DNA of 64,000 bases from an uncultured Actinomycetes bacterium (GCA_963841735.1 CAWJDT010000001.1:448001-512000), one strand, 5' to 3'. Shown: positions 38,258 to 42,147, numbered from the stretch's first letter. The notes: generated by a model from the letters alone, not told the origin. Translations and numbers: made by a program.

Positions 38258-40351
38258 CTAGTCCTCAGGCAAGACCCGGTCGAGAGTGGTCTGTAGGAGC
38301 TTTAGTGACTGCAGGTACATCAGGCTCTTCTTCTTGGCGATGATGTCCGCCTCCCACAGAGCAGCCATGAAGGTCTGCGGATCGTGGAAACGGGGCATGC
38401 GGATGAGGGCGGTTCCCAAAGCCTGCAGCACATGGGCATCACTGCCCGCGCCGGCCACGATGTTGTACTTGGCCGCGAAACGCTCGGCGGCTAGGTTGAA
38501 CGACGACAGCGCCACTTTGGCGTTGTAGATCTCTATGACGTCGATGCGGTGCAGATTGTCCACAAGCGCCCGGTAGGTCGGGGTGGTCCGCAGCGCGTCG
38601 AACGGGTGAGGCACGTACACCAGACCCCCTTGCTCCTTGATGAGCGACAGAGTCTCGTCGAAACTGAGACCGGCGGGGATGCGCTTCTTCAGGAATAGGC
38701 CTATGACCTCGCCCTCCGCGGTCTTCACTTCCTCGGCGACGATGACGAAGGGGTCTCCCTTGGAGAGCTCCTGGGCCAAGAAGGCCCCGTCGATCTCGTT
38801 GTGGTCGGCGATGGCCAAAGCCCCCAGACCGATCTCCCGGGCGGTGGCCAGGATCGACTCCACCGAGGACGCGCAGTCTTTGGAGAAGTTGGAGTGCACG
38901 TGCATGTCGGCGTTGATCCAGTCGGGCCGCACCGGACCCACGGCGGCATGCCGCATGCGCCGCCGGGTCGGTTCCTCGCCGATGCCCCTCACATGAAGGG
39001 AGTAGCCCGCCGCCTGGGTCTTGGCTCCGGCCCCCTCGCGGTTGCTGGTGACGGCGAGAGTCTCCCGGTAGATACCTTCCAGCCTCTCGGCCACCGCGGC
39101 CATGGTGTGCTGATGCGTGTTTGAGGCGGCGCTGCCGGCCGCGCGTGGGGCCTCGTCAAGCCGGGACATCCGAGGCCAGGGTGTCTGAGTCAGAGCCGCC
39201 GCCACGGCCTGACGGAGAGAGCCCGACTCAGTGGCCGAGAAGACCGCGCCCCTGCCCGACGGAACCAGAATGTCGCGCACCGGCGACAGATCGGGTCCGA
39301 CTACCGGACAGCCGCACACCAAGGCTTCGGAGGTTGCGACACCCAGCCACTCGCCCCCCAAGAAGGGAAGAATGGTGACGGCAGCCGCCTGGTACAAGGG
39401 CACCAGCTCATCGGGCTTGTCAAACTCAACCAGGGTGAGACGCGACGCCAGCTTCCGCGGCACCCCCCGGGGTACCCACCGCGCCGTCGAAGGCCGGTGA
39501 AAGGCGACGGCCACCCGGTCCACATCCTCAGGGAAAGCAGCCAAAAGCGAACGGAGCAGGGCGCGATACGAGCGGCGTCCGTCGCCTCGGTAGACATAGA
39601 GGGCGAAAGGACCGGCTGCGGTGTTCGGAGGGGAACTCGCGGCTGCACTCACCCCGGCTGCCACGCCACTCGCCACTCCCGGCATCACCCCTGTTCCGCA
39701 AGGCAGAACCTCGTAGTTGCCCGGATAGAGTTCGTCCATCATCCCCCGGGCAGTGGCAAAAGTGACAACCCGCCCATCCAGCCGCGAGAAGAACCGCTCA
39801 AGCACCGGCTGCCCCATCTCGTACGCCGCCACCCCTACAGGAGTCAGATGAAAAGTGGCCACCACAGGGCTACGGGCCTCCCGCAGCGCCGTGAAGCTTA
39901 ACGAGGGTGCCAGCGGTTCGTGCACATGCAGAAGGTCGAATTCGGCCCCCAGCATCAGCTTCTCTATCCGGGAGGTCACGTCCAAGGGCAACCCCAGGTT
40001 GGCTACCCCTCCGTTCAGACGTATCGGCAGGCTCGACCCTAGTGGGATCACAGGGATGCCGGCCTCAGGCCCCAGTGGCCCGTTGCCGGGCAAGGGAAGA
40101 AGCAGCCGGTCCGGCGGAGCTCCACGACGATAGTCGCCCAGAAGAGTGACCACCTGGCCACGGCTGCGGTGGAAGAGCGCGCGTATGCGCGGCTCATCCC
40201 GAAGATCGCTCGAAGAGACCACCACCACCGGCAACTGACCGCGGCGCTTCAGTTCACGGGCTAAGTCGGCCACATGTTGGTTGACGGCGCTGGGAGTGCT
40301 CCAAGAGAACGGCGTCACTAGAGCTATGTGCAGGTCTCTTGCCACGCTCAC
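38258..40351 (-). CDS. PimA-like GT4 glycosyltransferase fused to PHP phosphoesterase
   Basis: HVHEPLAPSLS, ATFH, E-X7-E; PHP motifs DMHVHS, DHNE, HPF, GSDAH. Confidence 0.82.
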   Translation of the reverse strand: MSVARDLHIALVTPFSWSTPSAVNQHVADLARELKRRGQLPVVVVSSSDLRDEPRIRALFHRSRGQVVTLLGDYRRGAPPDRLLLPLPGNGPLGPEAGIPVIPLGSSLPIRLNGGVANLGLPLDVTSRIEKLMLGAEFDLLHVHEPLAPSLSFTALREARSPVVATFHLTPVGVAAYEMGQPVLERFFSRLDGRVVTFATARGMMDELYPGNYEVLPCGTGVMPGVASGVAAGVSAAASSPPNTAAGPFALYVYRGDGRRSYRALLRSLLAAFPEDVDRVAVAFHRPSTARWVPRGVPRKLASRLTLVEFDKPDELVPLYQAAAVTILPFLGGEWLGVATSEALVCGCPVVGPDLSPVRDILVPSGRGAVFSATESGSLRQAVAAALTQTPWPRMSRLDEAPRAAGSAASNTHQHTMAAVAERLEGIYRETLAVTSNREGAGAKTQAAGYSLHVRGIGEEPTRRRMRHAAVGPVRPDWINADMHVHSNFSKDCASSVESILATAREIGLGALAIADHNEIDGAFLAQELSKGDPFVIVAEEVKTAEGEVIGLFLKKRIPAGLSFDETLSLIKEQGGLVYVPHPFDALRTTPTYRALVDNLHRIDVIEIYNAKVALSSFNLAAERFAAKYNIVAGAGSDAHVLQALGTALIRMPRFHDPQTFMAALWEADIIAKKKSLMYLQSLKLLQTTLDRVLPED

Positions 40352-40433
40352 GTCCTCGACACGCCGAGGCCACACCGGGCGGCGGCCCTTCGAGGGCCGC
40401 CGCCCGGGGGTCCGGGCTAGATATGCTTGTTCG

Positions 40434-41537
40434 CTACTTCTTGGCCGGGGCGCTCGGCTTGGCCGGCGTTCCAGCTATGAAGGCCTCAGTCTTCTGCCGG
40501 GCTTCATCGTCGCTGTACTGGATGGGCGGCGACTTCATGAAGTAGGAGGCCGGTTCGTATAGAGCTCCCGACACTCCGCGGTCCAGAGCCAGCTTCGCGC
40601 AACGCACCGCATCGATGACGATGCCGGCCGAGTTGGGCGAGTCGACCACTTCGAGCTTCAGCTCGATGTTCAAGGGCACATCGCCGAAGGTGCGGCCTTC
40701 CATGCGGATATAGGCCCACTTGCGGTCTTCCAGCCACTCGACGTAGTCCGAAGGACCGATGTGGATGTTCTTCTTGCCCATGTCGTAGTCCAGCTGCGAG
40801 GTGACCGAGTTGGTCTTGGAGATCTTCTTGCTCTCCAGGCGCTCCCGCTCCAGCATGTTGAGAAAGTCGGTGTTGCCACCCACGTTAAGCTGCGAGGTCC
40901 GCTCCAGCTTGACGCCCCGCTCGCGCATGAGCCGGGTGAGCACCCGGTGCACGATGGTGGCCCCCACCTGCGACTTGATGTCGTCGCCGATGACCGGAAG
41001 ACCGCGCTCTGCAAACCGCTCCTGCCAGTACTTCTCGCGGGCGATGAACACCGGGATGCAGTTCACAAACCCGCAACCCGCTTCGAGAATCTGCTCAACG
41101 TACCACTTGGTCGCCATCTCGCTGCCCACCGGCAGGTAGCTGACCACCACGTCGGTTTTGGTGTCCTTGAGAATGCCGACGACGTCGGCTGTTGGTCCAG
41201 GGGCCTTTTCGATAACAGCCGACAGATACTTGCCCAGCCCGTCGTGCGTCATGCCCCGGTGGACCTTGACCCCCATCTCGGGCACGTCGCAGAACTTGAC
41301 GGTACAGTTCTTGCCACCGTCGATGGCCTGCGAAAGGTCCTTGCCTACTTTGGTCTTGTCGATATCGAACGCAGCGGTGAACTCAATATCGGAGATGTGA
41401 TAACCCCCGAGGTTCACGTGCATGAGGCCGGGGACGAACTCATCCGCCTTGGCGTTGCGGTAGTACTGCACGCCCTGAATGAAGGACGATGCGCAGTTCC
41501 CCACCCCGATGATCGCGACCCGTACTTTATCGCTCAA
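40434..41537 (-). CDS. ino1: myo-inositol-1-phosphate synthase
   Basis: [42 protein letters not shown]. Confidence 0.95.
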
Positions 41538-42147
41538 CGATTCCTCCCTGTTTCATTTGCTTGCCGAGTTGGCGGTAGGTGTGGACGACGCGCTGGATGA
41601 CCGTGAACACGGTCAGGGCCAGCATTATGTAGATCACGTACGGCAGAACGTCGAAGAAGAGTCCTAGAGCTATGAGAATGACCCGCTCGGGTCTGCTCAT
41701 GAGCCCCACCTTGCACTCCACTCCCAGGCTTTCAGCCCGAGCTCGAGTGTAACTCACAAGCATGCTGCCCATTAAGGCCAGCACTACCAGAGCCACATCG
41801 ACCTCACGTCCTTGTACGGCGAGCAGATAGGCGATCGCAGAGAGTATGACTCCCTCCGACACCCGGTCCAAAGTCGAATCGAGGAAGGCCCCAAAGGGCG
41901 TTACCTTCTGAGACATGCGGGCCAGCGCCCCGTCGAGCATGTCCATGAGTCCGGCGACCACGAACACGATGCCCGCCCAATACAGGTGGTCGGGCACGAC
42001 GATGACCAGTGCGCCGGCCGCCAGGTTAAGGACGGTACCGGCTATGGTGATCTGATTGGGAGTGATCCTCAGCCACCGCAGGGCCGCCAGCAACGGCAAG
42101 AAGCACCTGCGCAACTGAATCCCGAAGAACTCGCGAATATTCTCCAT
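41527..42147 (-). CDS. pgsA: CDP-alcohol phosphatidyltransferase (PIP synthase-like)
   Basis: [15 protein letters not shown]...[18 protein letters not shown]; overlaps ino1. Confidence 0.85.

What the first reader, a model, noticed from the sequence alone, without database searches (positions are those of the whole stretch)
38258..42147. pgsA-ino1-[PimA-like GT::PHP] cluster: candidate for the missing PIP phosphatase
Seen: co-oriented pgsA (overlapping ino1), ino1, then one ORF joining a PimA-like GT4 (HVHEPLAPSLS, ATFH, E-X7-E) to a PHP domain with intact metal motifs (HxH, DH, H, DAH). Established: actinobacterial PgsA makes phosphatidylinositol phosphate from inositol-1-P, PimA mannosylates PI, and to my knowledge the intervening PIP phosphatase is unassigned in mycobacteria. 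Inference: the fusion dephosphorylates PIP and glycosylates the PI, giving a compact three-gene glycosyl-PI pathway. Alternative: a glycosylated di-inositol-phosphate solute pathway. The GT donor site has RRS rather than RKG, so the GT half may be altered or inactive.
Basis: partly seen in the sequence, partly recalled or inferred. Interest (0 to 1): 0.75.

Follow-up and report, generated by a model that had tools for sequence, protein, structure and literature searches.

The report
PimA-like glycosyltransferase fused to PHP phosphatase
A soil actinobacterium of the class Thermoleophilia keeps, beside its two phosphatidylinositol-building genes, one gene joining a PimA-like sugar transferase to a metal phosphatase, which is a good, untested candidate for the enzyme that removes the last phosphate when bacteria make phosphatidylinositol.

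Summary
On the minus strand lie a PIP-synthase-type CDP-alcohol transferase (41527-42147), inositol-3-phosphate synthase (40434-41537) and one 695-705 aa ORF (38258-40375) that joins a GT4 fold to a PHP domain with all metal ligands.

The genome is a Thermoleophilia bacterium. The fusion and its place behind PIPS and Ino1 are conserved: 28 of 30 loci from ten families show both genes upstream, and 8 of 10 loci from an eleventh family keep the fusion behind PIPS. A separate Saccharibacteria clade puts a stand-alone PHP homologue between a PIPS-like gene and a CDP-diglyceride-synthase-like gene.

My best reading (0.5) is that the PHP half removes the head-group phosphate left by PIP synthase.

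- The GT half is a PimA paralogue; a canonical PimA lies elsewhere in this genome.
- Its donor motifs are eroded in most families, and the PHP ligands are eroded in one family.
- Most stand-alone homologues are not linked to inositol genes.
- 172 of 201 sampled Actinomycetota have no homologue, so this is not the mycobacterial enzyme by homology.

No biochemistry exists. I rate it a new variant of a known kind, interest 0.6.

The parts
41527..42147 (-). PIP-synthase-type CDP-alcohol phosphatidyltransferase (P0003, 206 aa). It is the only gene of this type in the genome.
   Evidence: Pfam PF01066 at 74.9 bits. NCBIfam AIP synthase at 171.2 bits (cut-off 180) and PIP synthase at 143.6 bits (cut-off 170). 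Best solved relatives are PIP synthases: 5D92 at E 1.5e-25, 6WM5, and M. tuberculosis PgsA1 6H53 at E 3e-23, against DIPP synthase 4O6M at E 6e-11. The two other CDP-OH transferases of the genome are PgsA-type.
40434..41537 (-). Inositol-3-phosphate synthase (Ino1, P0002, 367 aa). It overlaps the PIPS gene by 11 bases.
   Evidence: PF01658 at 128.1 bits; TIGR03450 at 554.9 bits, under its cut-off of 638. It is 72-94% identical to the syntenic gene in 29 of 30 class loci.
38258..40375 (-). Fused ORF GT4::PHP (705 aa from the first GTG, stop codon included). The probable start is the GTG at 40345, which gives 695 aa.
   Evidence: ORF list and translation. The 695 aa database protein P0004 is 100% identical. 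The AF2 model has pLDDT 87.3 and pTM 0.89.
39044..40345 (-). GT-B (GT4) half, a PimA paralogue (residues 1-434 of the 695 aa form).
   Evidence: Only PimA (2GEJ/4N9W, E 2e-24) and one weak hit (6KIH) appear in the PDB sequence search. The Foldseek top hits are PimA at TM 0.73-0.74. The nearest unfused relatives that carry a name are nearly all called PI alpha-mannosyltransferase. It is only the second-best hit of named PimAs in its own genome.
38939..39043 (-). Linker between the halves, modelled with low to medium confidence.
   Evidence: Mean pLDDT of 58-74 over the 10-residue blocks for residues 431-470. This stretch has no invariant columns.
38261..38938 (-). PHP metal-dependent phosphoesterase half with intact ligands (HxH, DH, EE, PHPFD, E..N, SDAH).
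   Evidence: PF02811 and PF13263 are over their cut-offs. The ligand columns are invariant in 22 stand-alone and fused homologues and in 42 fused proteins. The domain model has pLDDT 92.8. The nearest folds are the RNase AM PHP domain 7UG9, TM0559 2ANU (TM 0.71), 3E38, 3O0F and 2YB1.
38273..38323 (-). Conserved C-terminal helix (YLQSLKLL...), possibly a membrane-surface or interface helix.
   Evidence: Helix 675-691 in the model. Y677 is nearly invariant and L681 and K682 are invariant in 42 fused proteins. In 5 of 9 stand-alone homologues the window with the highest hydrophobic moment is the basic C-terminal tail; in the window's own protein it is not among the top 12. The role is inferred.

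Best explanation
The three genes form a phosphatidylinositol module. Ino1 makes inositol-3-phosphate. The PIP synthase joins it to CDP-diacylglycerol to give phosphatidylinositol phosphate. The PHP half of the fused protein, a metal-dependent phosphomonoesterase, then removes the remaining head-group phosphate to give phosphatidylinositol.

The GT half derives from PimA. It keeps the N-terminal (acceptor-side) motifs almost everywhere, so its conserved job is most likely to hold the inositol head group at the membrane surface for the phosphatase. In the window's own family (f1) it also keeps the donor-side motifs and is often the only PimA-like gene, so there it probably still glycosylates PI, as PimA does.

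Shown: gene content, fusion, synteny, folds, intact ligands and the pattern of motif erosion. Inferred: the substrate of the PHP half, the order of the two steps, the sugar donor, and membrane association.
For: 1. Conserved operon. PIPS, INO1 and the GT::PHP gene are co-oriented in 28 of 30 loci from ten families, although the GT half has drifted to a median 28.6% identity between families and the PHP half to 50.7%. The fusion follows PIPS in 8 of 10 f2 loci.

2. Near-universal presence in the class. A PHP match is found in 148 of 151 genomes and PIPS in 150 of 151.

3. An independent second linkage. In a well-supported Saccharibacteria/Patescibacteria clade (10 rows, aLRT 99) the stand-alone PHP lies directly after a CDP-alcohol transferase. 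The 5 of these transferases that I scanned have AIP and PIP synthase as their best NCBIfam models. A CarS-like CDP-diglyceride-synthase-family gene follows the PHP. One Nanoarchaeia locus is similar.

4. The PHP metal ligands are invariant in 42 fused proteins, while no GT column is invariant.

5. The step needs an enzyme here.
- Cultured Thermoleophilia have PI as a main lipid, and PIMs (passages of PMC3035278 and PMC10722151).
- The genome has no PgpA-family gene, which is the Bacteroides PIP phosphatase type (PMC9246714).
- It has no MshA or MshC over their cut-offs, so inositol is not used for mycothiol.

6. Complementary erosion.
- Family f1 keeps the E-x7-E and R..RR motifs, and 15 of 25 f1 genomes have no canonical PimA at E 1e-40.
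- In 5 of 5 such genomes (96-100% complete) the fusion's GT half is the best hit of a named PimA.
- Families with a canonical PimA in nearly all sampled genomes (f4 23/23, f7 11/11, f6 23/24) have lost the donor motifs. This fits an ancestral bifunctional PimA plus phosphatase.

7. Chemistry. Solved PHP relatives include a 3',5'-bisphosphate nucleotidase (2YB1), which removes a ring secondary-alcohol phosphate next to another phosphoester. The analogy to PI-3-P is my inference.
Against: - No biochemical or genetic test of this family was found.
- In family f2 all 8 fused proteins examined have lost the HxH, DH, EE and DxH ligands, yet PIPS is kept (26 of 26). One f2 genome keeps only the GT and one keeps neither. 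Those genomes must dephosphorylate PIP by another enzyme, or the fusion has a further, non-catalytic role.
- Most stand-alone homologues have unrelated neighbours: 68 of 80 loci, and 0 of 12 other actinobacterial loci with PIPS, INO1 or GT within about 7 kb.
- Only 1 of 5 Saccharibacteria genomes with the cluster has an Ino1 homologue, so the lipid made there may not be PIP.
- The nearest solved PHP folds act on nucleotides or RNA, or have no known function.
- The window's own C-terminal helix is not strongly amphipathic.
- The genome is 89.7% complete, so absences are provisional.
Confidence: 0.5

Rival explanations
1. Synthase-then-phosphatase order, as in sucrose-phosphate or trehalose-phosphate synthase/phosphatase fusions. 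The GT half would glycosylate PIP itself, and the PHP half would then dephosphorylate glycosyl-PIP. The product would be a glycosyl-PI made without free PI.
For: The order GT (N-terminal) then phosphatase (C-terminal) is that of known bifunctional sugar-phosphate synthase/phosphatases (recalled). Sucrose-phosphate synthase 6KIH is the only non-PimA hit of the GT half in the PDB sequence search, and rank 9 by fold. Family f1 keeps its donor motifs.
Against: In most families the donor motifs (equivalents of E274, R196 and K202) are gone while the PHP stays intact. The stand-alone PHP of the Saccharibacteria clade has no GT partner in the cluster. Both points say the phosphatase does not need a prior glycosylation.
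Confidence: 0.13
2. The PHP half would hydrolyse a nucleotide or pyrophosphate by-product (CMP from PIPS, GDP or UDP from the GT, or PPi from CDP-DAG synthase). This would pull the lipid reactions forward rather than act on the lipid.
For: The nearest solved folds are RNase AM, a pAp phosphatase (2YB1) and an AMP-binding protein (3O0F). In Saccharibacteria the PHP sits between a CMP-releasing and a PPi-releasing enzyme. A PHP domain with pyrophosphatase activity is reported for E. coli DnaE (PMC4822814; only the start of the abstract in the listing was seen). The mycobacterial pimA operon carries a NUDIX domain (passage of the bioRxiv preprint).
Against: NCBIfam scores for RNase RNM (21.8 bits, cut-off 375) and the bisphosphate nucleotidase (28.3 bits, cut-off 400) are far under their cut-offs. 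The Thermoleophilia cluster has no CDP-DAG synthase. The fusion to a domain that binds the PI head group argues for a lipid substrate.
Confidence: 0.12
3. A soluble pathway. The GT half would glycosylate inositol-3-phosphate, as MshA does, and the PHP half would dephosphorylate the product. This would give a glycosyl-inositol solute or precursor. Alternatively, the PHP half would simply be an inositol-monophosphatase.
For: Ino1 is adjacent. The MshA reaction is followed by an unassigned phosphatase (recalled). MshA structures appear among the fold hits, 3C4Q at rank 10.
Against: The GT half scores 20.7 bits on the MshA model against a cut-off of 462.5. It finds PimA but not MshA in the PDB sequence search. 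No MshA or MshC over the cut-offs is in the genome. The synteny is with the membrane enzyme PIPS, also in f2 loci and in one f5 locus that lack an adjacent Ino1. An IMPase-family gene exists elsewhere in the genome.
Confidence: 0.08
4. The fused protein would be mainly a non-catalytic scaffold or regulator of PIP synthase and PimA. Its enzymatic sites would be relics.
For: Architecture and synteny persist in f2 although the PHP ligands are lost, and in f4, f5, f7, f8, f9 and f11 although the GT donor motifs are lost. A scaffold (ML0451c) is proposed for the mycobacterial PimA complex (passage of the bioRxiv preprint).
Against: All metal ligands are invariant in 42 fused proteins of ten families at about 50% identity. 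That is not expected of a relic.
Confidence: 0.05

Closest known systems
PimA, GDP-mannose-dependent phosphatidylinositol alpha-mannosyltransferase (M. smegmatis; PDB 2GEJ, 4N9W)
   Same: GT-B/GT4 fold. It is the best sequence and fold match of the GT half (E 2e-24, TM 0.73-0.74). The HEP and ATFH motifs, an Arg at the R196 position and E-x7-E are present in the window's protein.
   Different: It shares only about 24% identity with the genome's own canonical PimA and is a paralogue. It has an insertion of about 50 residues after strand 2, 'SA' in place of the Gly-Gly loop, and Arg for K202. It is fused to a PHP domain. The donor motifs are lost in most families of the class. The PimA residue numbers and their roles are recalled, not taken from a call.
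BT_1525, the PgpA-family PIP-DAG phosphatase of Bacteroides thetaiotaomicron (PMC9246714)
   Same: The same proposed reaction (PIP to PI) and the same genomic logic: the gene lies in a cluster with MIPS and PIP synthase (passages read).
   Different: It is an unrelated fold and family. No PF04608 gene was found in this genome. BT_1525 is backed by a knock-out that accumulates PIP-DAG. The PHP protein has no experimental backing.
PHP-superfamily phosphoesterases: TM0559 (2ANU), RNase AM/YciV (7UG9, 9ETK), BAD_1165 (3O0F), Cv1693 pAp phosphatase (2YB1)
   Same: The fold matches (TM 0.58-0.71, E 4e-11 to 6e-7), as do the metal-ligand motifs and the PHP_C extension.
   Different: Sequence identity is 15-21%. 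The NCBIfam equivalog scores are far under their cut-offs. This family has its own C-terminal helix and lies in a lipid-gene context. None of these relatives is known to act on a lipid.
Bifunctional sugar-phosphate synthase/phosphatase fusions (sucrose-phosphate and trehalose-phosphate synthase/phosphatase)
   Same: A GT-B synthase is followed by a phosphatase in one chain. Sucrose-phosphate synthase 6KIH is a weak hit of the GT half.
   Different: Their phosphatase is a HAD domain and their substrates are soluble (recalled). Here the phosphatase is a PHP domain and the context is a membrane lipid.
EphE, proposed candidate for the mycobacterial PIP phosphatase (bioRxiv 10.64898/2026.07.15.738315)
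   Same: It is a candidate for the same missing step, predicted to sit with PimA at the membrane (passages read).
   Different: It has an alpha/beta-hydrolase fold and is not fused. It is also untested biochemically. I did not search this genome for an EphE homologue.

Membership tests
PimA (GT4 PI mannosyltransferase) | GT-B fold closest to PimA among solved GT4 enzymes | tested here: met
   Foldseek ranks 1-5 are PimA chains (E 2e-20, TMt 0.73-0.74). In the phmmer search of the PDB only PimA passes E 1e-20.
PimA (GT4 PI mannosyltransferase) | Orthology: best hit of bona fide PimAs in its own genome | tested here: not met
   Four PimAs that carry a name or have named relatives hit G000:C1:1408116-1409249 at 127-209 bits, and the fusion only at 79-106 bits. 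A fifth (P0381) does not hit the fusion among its 8 listed hits. That other gene scores 250 bits to 2GEJ.
PimA (GT4 PI mannosyltransferase) | Catalytic and donor residues (H118, R196, K202, E274, E282, Gly loop; numbering and roles recalled) | tested here: inconclusive
   In the window's protein the H, R and both E residues are present, K is replaced by R, and GG by SA. Across the class the E274 equivalent is kept only in f1 and in 3 of 5 f3 proteins. The E282 equivalent is replaced by R or K in f5, f7, f8 and f11.
PimA (GT4 PI mannosyltransferase) | Transfer of mannose from GDP-Man to O-2 of PI | not testable with these tools
   Needs an enzyme assay.
PHP superfamily metal-dependent phosphoesterase | Pfam PHP and PHP_C over the gathering scores | tested here: met
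   PF02811 at 33.7 bits (cut-off 26.4) and PF13263 at 38.6 bits (cut-off 21.3).
PHP superfamily metal-dependent phosphoesterase | Full set of metal ligands (HxH, D/H, E, H, DxH) | tested here: met
   H23, H25, D55, H56, E80, H121, D177 and H179 (domain numbering) are invariant in 22 homologues. The same columns are invariant in 42 fused proteins. They are lost in family f2.
PHP superfamily metal-dependent phosphoesterase | Distorted barrel fold like solved PHP proteins | tested here: met
   Domain model pLDDT 92.8. TM 0.66-0.71 to TM0559 and E 4e-11 to RNase AM.
RNase AM / 3',5'-bisphosphate nucleotidase (TrpH/YciV equivalogs) | NCBIfam equivalog score over the cut-off | tested here: not met
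   NF041577 at 28.3 bits (cut-off 400) and NF047791 at 21.8 bits (cut-off 375).
CehA/McbA family metallohydrolase (NF038032) | Domain model over the cut-off | tested here: not met
   64.6 bits against a cut-off of 80. This is the best NCBIfam hit of the PHP half.
PgpA-type PIP phosphatase (BT_1525) | PF04608 domain | tested here: not met
   No PF04608 match in the whole genome, which is 89.7% complete. The control search rang in 5 reference genomes.
PIP synthase (for the neighbouring gene P0003) | Equivalog score, and best solved relatives are PIP synthases | tested here: inconclusive
   NF045883 at 143.6 bits (cut-off 170) and NF040950 at 171.2 bits (cut-off 180), both just under. The best PDB hits are PIP synthases at E 1e-25 to 3e-23, against DIPP synthase at E 6e-11.
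MshA (inositol-3-P GlcNAc transferase) | TIGR03449 over the cut-off | tested here: not met
   20.7 bits against a cut-off of 462.5 for the fusion. The best match in the genome is 93.7 bits.

The most novel reading that the evidence does not exclude
This PHP subfamily would be a widespread, so far unrecognised family of phospholipid head-group phosphatases. It would be the missing PIP phosphatase of Thermoleophilia and the missing (archae/phospha)tidylinositol-phosphate or -glycerol-phosphate phosphatase of Saccharibacteria, DPANN and other archaea. The Thermoleophilia fusion would be a Rosetta stone showing that it works hand in hand with PimA. The step would then have been filled by at least three unrelated enzyme families in different prokaryotes.
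Probability: 0.2. Interest if true: 0.8.

Novelty: new variant of a known kind. Interest (0 to 1): 0.6.

Why it matters
Bacteria and archaea make phosphatidylinositol through a phosphorylated intermediate. The phosphatase that finishes the job is known only in Bacteroides (PgpA type). Papers read here, up to July 2026, still call it unidentified or 'long-sought' in Actinobacteria.

A class-wide fusion of a PimA-derived domain with a phosphatase, locked behind PIP synthase and Ino1, gives a concrete enzyme to express and assay. If the assignment is right, three things follow:
- It adds a lipid substrate to the PHP superfamily.
- It shows that the step was filled by unrelated enzymes in different lineages.
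- It offers a lead for the equally unassigned archaeal and CPR enzymes.

It does not identify the mycobacterial enzyme, because mainstream Actinomycetota lack a homologue. The complementary decay of the two halves in different families is a neat case of subfunctionalisation that can be tested.

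Tried and rejected
- **The search for related loci with alignments A1 and A2.** I used the single protein P0221 and the genome search instead.
- **Promoter and terminator scan of 37000-44500.** It gave no more sites than the shuffles did (2 against 1.3; 6 against 4.8), so it says nothing about operon limits.
- **Complex prediction of the fusion (A3) with PIP synthase (A4).** The queue was full at all six hand-ins. 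The job never ran, so binding was not tested.
- **Careful maximum-likelihood tree.** It did not finish in 300 s. The tree cited is the quick IQ-TREE with a midpoint root. L043 was left out because my script picked an antisense ORF for it. Proteins over 330 aa, and 10 loci where my gene caller found no PHP ORF, were left out.
- **Mycothiol pathway.** Rejected: no MshA or MshC over the cut-offs.
- **Di-inositol-phosphate pathway.** Rejected: P0003 is much closer to PIP synthases, and the cluster has no cytidylyltransferase.
- **Assembly error joining two genes.** Rejected: the open frame is conserved in many genomes.
- **The paralogous stand-alone PHP of this genome (C6:80540-81139).** It lies beside an AmmeMemoRadiSam radical-SAM gene and a Ser/Thr kinase, not beside lipid genes.
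- **Supplementary files.** None were opened.

Full report
**What is there**

The minus strand of the window carries three tightly packed genes.
- The first (41527-42147, 206 aa) is a CDP-alcohol phosphatidyltransferase. Its best NCBIfam models are archaetidylinositol-phosphate synthase (171.2 bits, cut-off 180) and PIP synthase (143.6 bits, cut-off 170). Its best solved relatives are PIP synthases: 5D92 at E 1.5e-25 and M. tuberculosis PgsA1 6H53 at E 3e-23. DIPP synthase 4O6M scores only E 6e-11.
- The second (40434-41537) is inositol-3-phosphate synthase. It scores 128 bits on PF01658 and 555 bits on TIGR03450, under that model's cut-off of 638. It overlaps the first gene by 11 bases.
- The third (38258-40375) is one open frame of 705 aa. 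A 100% identical database protein of 695 aa starts at 40345. It holds GT4 domains and then PHP plus PHP_C, all over the Pfam cut-offs.

The only change is that the first gene is a PIP synthase and not PgsA; the genome's true pgsA lies on contig C4.

**Organism and spread**

Named relatives of the fusion are Thermoleophilia and Actinomycetota MAG proteins. The genome (G000) has 2.82 Mb in 8 contigs and is 89.7% complete.

In a sample of 151 genomes of the class:
- 148 have a match to the PHP profile at E 1e-10 or better. Most matches lie in open frames of about 560-750 aa.
- 150 have the PIP synthase.

I fetched 30 loci from ten families (f1, f3-f11). All hold the fused ORF. PIPS and INO1 lie upstream on the same strand in 28 of them. 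L042 shows no PIPS hit in the stretch fetched, and L046 shows no INO1 hit.

Between families the PHP half stays at a median 50.7% identity and the GT half at 28.6%. PHP is the better conserved half in 391 of 391 between-family pairs.

**The GT half**

- By sequence it finds only PimA in the PDB at a strong score (2GEJ/4N9W, E 2e-24).
- By fold the five best Foldseek hits are PimA chains (TM 0.73-0.74; model pLDDT 87.3, pTM 0.89).
- Its nearest unfused relatives that carry a name are nearly all called PI alpha-mannosyltransferase.

It is nevertheless a paralogue. Four PimAs that carry a name or have named relatives hit another gene of this genome better: G000:C1:1408014-1409249 at 127-209 bits, against 79-106 bits for the fusion. 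That other gene scores 250 bits to M. smegmatis PimA. It stands among unrelated genes.

**Motif survey**

I aligned 29 fused proteins with four such PimAs and the genome's own PimA. The PimA residue numbers used below are recalled. I checked the offset against R77, K78, K80 and K81 in the alignment.
- The N-terminal motifs HEP and ATFH (the H118 equivalent) are kept in eight families and lost in f4 and f9.
- The donor-side residues fare worse. The E274 equivalent is kept only in f1 and in 3 of 5 f3 proteins.
- The E282 equivalent is replaced by Arg or Lys in f5, f7, f8 and f11.
- The R196/K202 stretch is recognisable only in f1, f3 and f6.
- In an alignment of 42 fused proteins no GT column is invariant, whereas every PHP ligand column is.

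**The eleventh family**

In family f2, 8 of 10 loci keep a fused ORF of about 540-610 aa behind PIPS.
- In all 8 the PHP ligands are replaced: HxH by RVR or RVH, DHN by APG, SPL or CEG, EE by QE or QQ, and SDAH by SGAx.
- HEP, TFH and the second Glu of the GT half are mostly kept.
- One f2 genome has PIPS, an unfused GT of 397 aa and then a UDG-family gene. One has PIPS followed directly by the UDG-family gene.

**Who has a canonical PimA**

With the genome's own PimA as the query, 114 of 151 genomes have a match at E 1e-40. By family the counts are f1 10 of 25, f2 11 of 26, f3 23 of 25, f4 23 of 23, f6 23 of 24 and f7 11 of 11. Some f3 and f6 hits are the fusion's own GT half, at 32-40% identity.

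In 5 of 5 f1 genomes without such a match (96-100% complete), the best hit of a named PimA is the GT half of the fusion.

So the family that keeps the donor motifs is the one that often has no other PimA, and families with a canonical PimA have let the donor side decay. I read this as descent from a bifunctional ancestor. It is also the best indirect evidence that the GT half does, or once did, PimA's job.

**The PHP half**

The domain model (pLDDT 92.8) is closest to these solved structures:
- the RNase AM PHP domain (7UG9, E 4e-11);
- TM0559 (2ANU, TM 0.71);
- BVU_3505 (3E38);
- PsfC (7RTY);
- BAD_1165 (3O0F);
- the pAp phosphatase Cv1693 (2YB1).

Sequence-based equivalog models are far under their cut-offs. 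In a library of 1.84 billion representatives, 2648 proteins match at E 1e-10 and 251 at E 1e-30. They include GT4::PHP fusions of 570-705 aa, many stand-alone proteins of about 215-235 aa, and other fusions with CoaE or a methyltransferase.

**Is the stand-alone form linked to inositol genes?**

Of the 80 loci found with a Chloroflexota homologue, the breakdown is as follows.
- One is a Gaiellales fusion with the full cluster.
- Ten, from Saccharibacteria and Patescibacteria, have a CDP-alcohol transferase ending right at the start of the PHP gene.
- One Nanoarchaeia locus is similar.
- The other 68 have unrelated neighbours such as exonuclease VII, EF-P, an aminotransferase, radical-SAM genes and pseudouridine synthase.

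For the six adjacent transferases that I scanned, the two best NCBIfam models are AIP synthase and PIP synthase (44-150 bits, under the cut-offs), not PgsA. A CarS-like CDP-archaeol/diglyceride-synthase-family gene follows the PHP in 10 loci. A PIG-L-family deacetylase follows in 4.

In a quick tree of 92 PHP domains the ten Saccharibacteria rows form one clade (aLRT 99) and the Thermoleophilia fusions another (aLRT 98). The label 'next to PIPS' needs three changes on the tree. Four other Saccharibacteria rows lie elsewhere in the tree and are not linked.

Against the reading:
- Only 1 of 5 of these Saccharibacteria genomes has an Ino1 homologue.
- 0 of 12 stand-alone loci from other Actinomycetota have PIPS, INO1 or a PimA-like gene within about 7 kb.
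- In a phylum sample, 29 of 201 genomes have a match at E 1e-25. Fourteen of these are in the class and 15 are in five other families. The remaining 172, among them all the large families sampled, have none.

**Need for the enzyme**

- Passages of PMC3035278 give PI as the main polar lipid of Conexibacter.
- Passages of PMC10722151 list PI and PIM for a Solirubrobacter strain.
- Passages of PMC9246714 identify the Bacteroides PIP phosphatase as BT_1525, of the PgpA family, and say that the bacterial phosphatase was unknown before.
- Passages of the preprint 10.64898/2026.07.15.738315 call the mycobacterial enzyme 'as-yet unidentified' and 'long-sought'. They propose EphE without biochemical proof.

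This genome has no PgpA-family gene, no MshA or MshC over the cut-offs, and one IMPase-family gene.

I found no paper that links PHP domains with archaetidylinositol phosphate or with PGP phosphatase (0 papers held both terms). These searches cover only the held library.

**Reading**

Most likely (0.5) the PHP half is the phosphatase that turns the PIP synthase product into PI. The PimA-derived half holds the head group, and in f1 it still glycosylates. The substrate, the order of the steps, the sugar donor and the membrane binding are inferred. The rivals are:
- a synthase-then-phosphatase order through glycosyl-PIP (0.13);
- hydrolysis of a nucleotide or pyrophosphate by-product (0.12);
- a soluble glycosyl-inositol or IMPase role (0.08);
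- a mainly structural role (0.05).

The dead PHP of f2 and the unlinked stand-alone homologues are the main facts that the best reading does not explain. They imply another PIP phosphatase in some lineages and other substrates within the wider family.

**Verdict**

The finding is real and well conserved, and it is not described in the library searched. It is a new variant of a known kind: a known reaction, possibly carried out by a new enzyme family in a new fusion. It makes the identity of a prokaryotic PIP phosphatase directly testable in one class, and perhaps in CPR and DPANN lineages, but it does not solve the mycobacterial case. Interest 0.6.

Noticed in passing
L156:1803-4112 (-) and L157:1722-4124 (-) (genomes G119 and G053, families f7 and f5): The canonical PimA-like GT4 of these families is fused at its C-terminus to an LPG_synthase_TM (MprF flippase-like) domain, giving 769-800 aa. 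Open frames of about 770-870 aa recur at the PimA hits of many f5, f7 and f8 genomes. This may be a glycolipid synthase joined to a flippase.
   Followed up: partly
L076, L081, L082, L084, L085, L086, L091, L095, L098, L130; also L100: Saccharibacteria/Patescibacteria and one Nanoarchaeia locus carry a compact lipid cluster: an AIP/PIP-synthase-like gene, a stand-alone PHP, a CarS-like CDP-archaeol-synthase-family gene, and in 4 loci a PIG-L-family deacetylase. Only 1 of 5 of these genomes has Ino1.
   Followed up: partly
window 37518-38138 (-); L146:9787-10464; L153:7205-7879: A UDG-superfamily gene lies directly downstream of the cluster in the window and in two f2 genomes, even where the fusion itself is gone. 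No functional link is apparent.
   Followed up: no
window 33708-35070 (-): Two overlapping ORFs (33708-34448 and 34039-35070) match the C-terminal (277-416) and N-terminal (1-169) parts of the PF12831 FAD oxidoreductase profile. This looks like a frameshifted gene or a sequencing error.
   Followed up: no
window 28909-31369 (+): The transglycosylase (28909-29964) and transpeptidase (30179-31369) domains lie in separate ORFs, although class A penicillin-binding proteins usually carry both in one chain. This may be a frameshift or a split gene.
   Followed up: no
window 27131-28486: The HSP70 (dnaK) ORF on the minus strand covers only profile positions 69-498. The antisense ORF matches PF10712 'NAD-GH', which I recall as a known spurious family read from the opposite strand of dnaK.
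   Followed up: no
G000:C6:80540-81139 (L062:7899-8621, -): A stand-alone paralogue of the PHP half (41% identity, 240 aa) lies beside an AmmeMemoRadiSam radical-SAM gene and a PASTA Ser/Thr kinase. Such a second copy appears in most f1 genomes.
   Followed up: partly
several class genomes: Single in-frame TGA or TAG codons lie inside otherwise full-length PIPS or PimA matches in a number of genomes, for example G136, G148, G070, G105, G015 and G117. They could be sequencing errors, pseudogenes or recoding.
   Followed up: no
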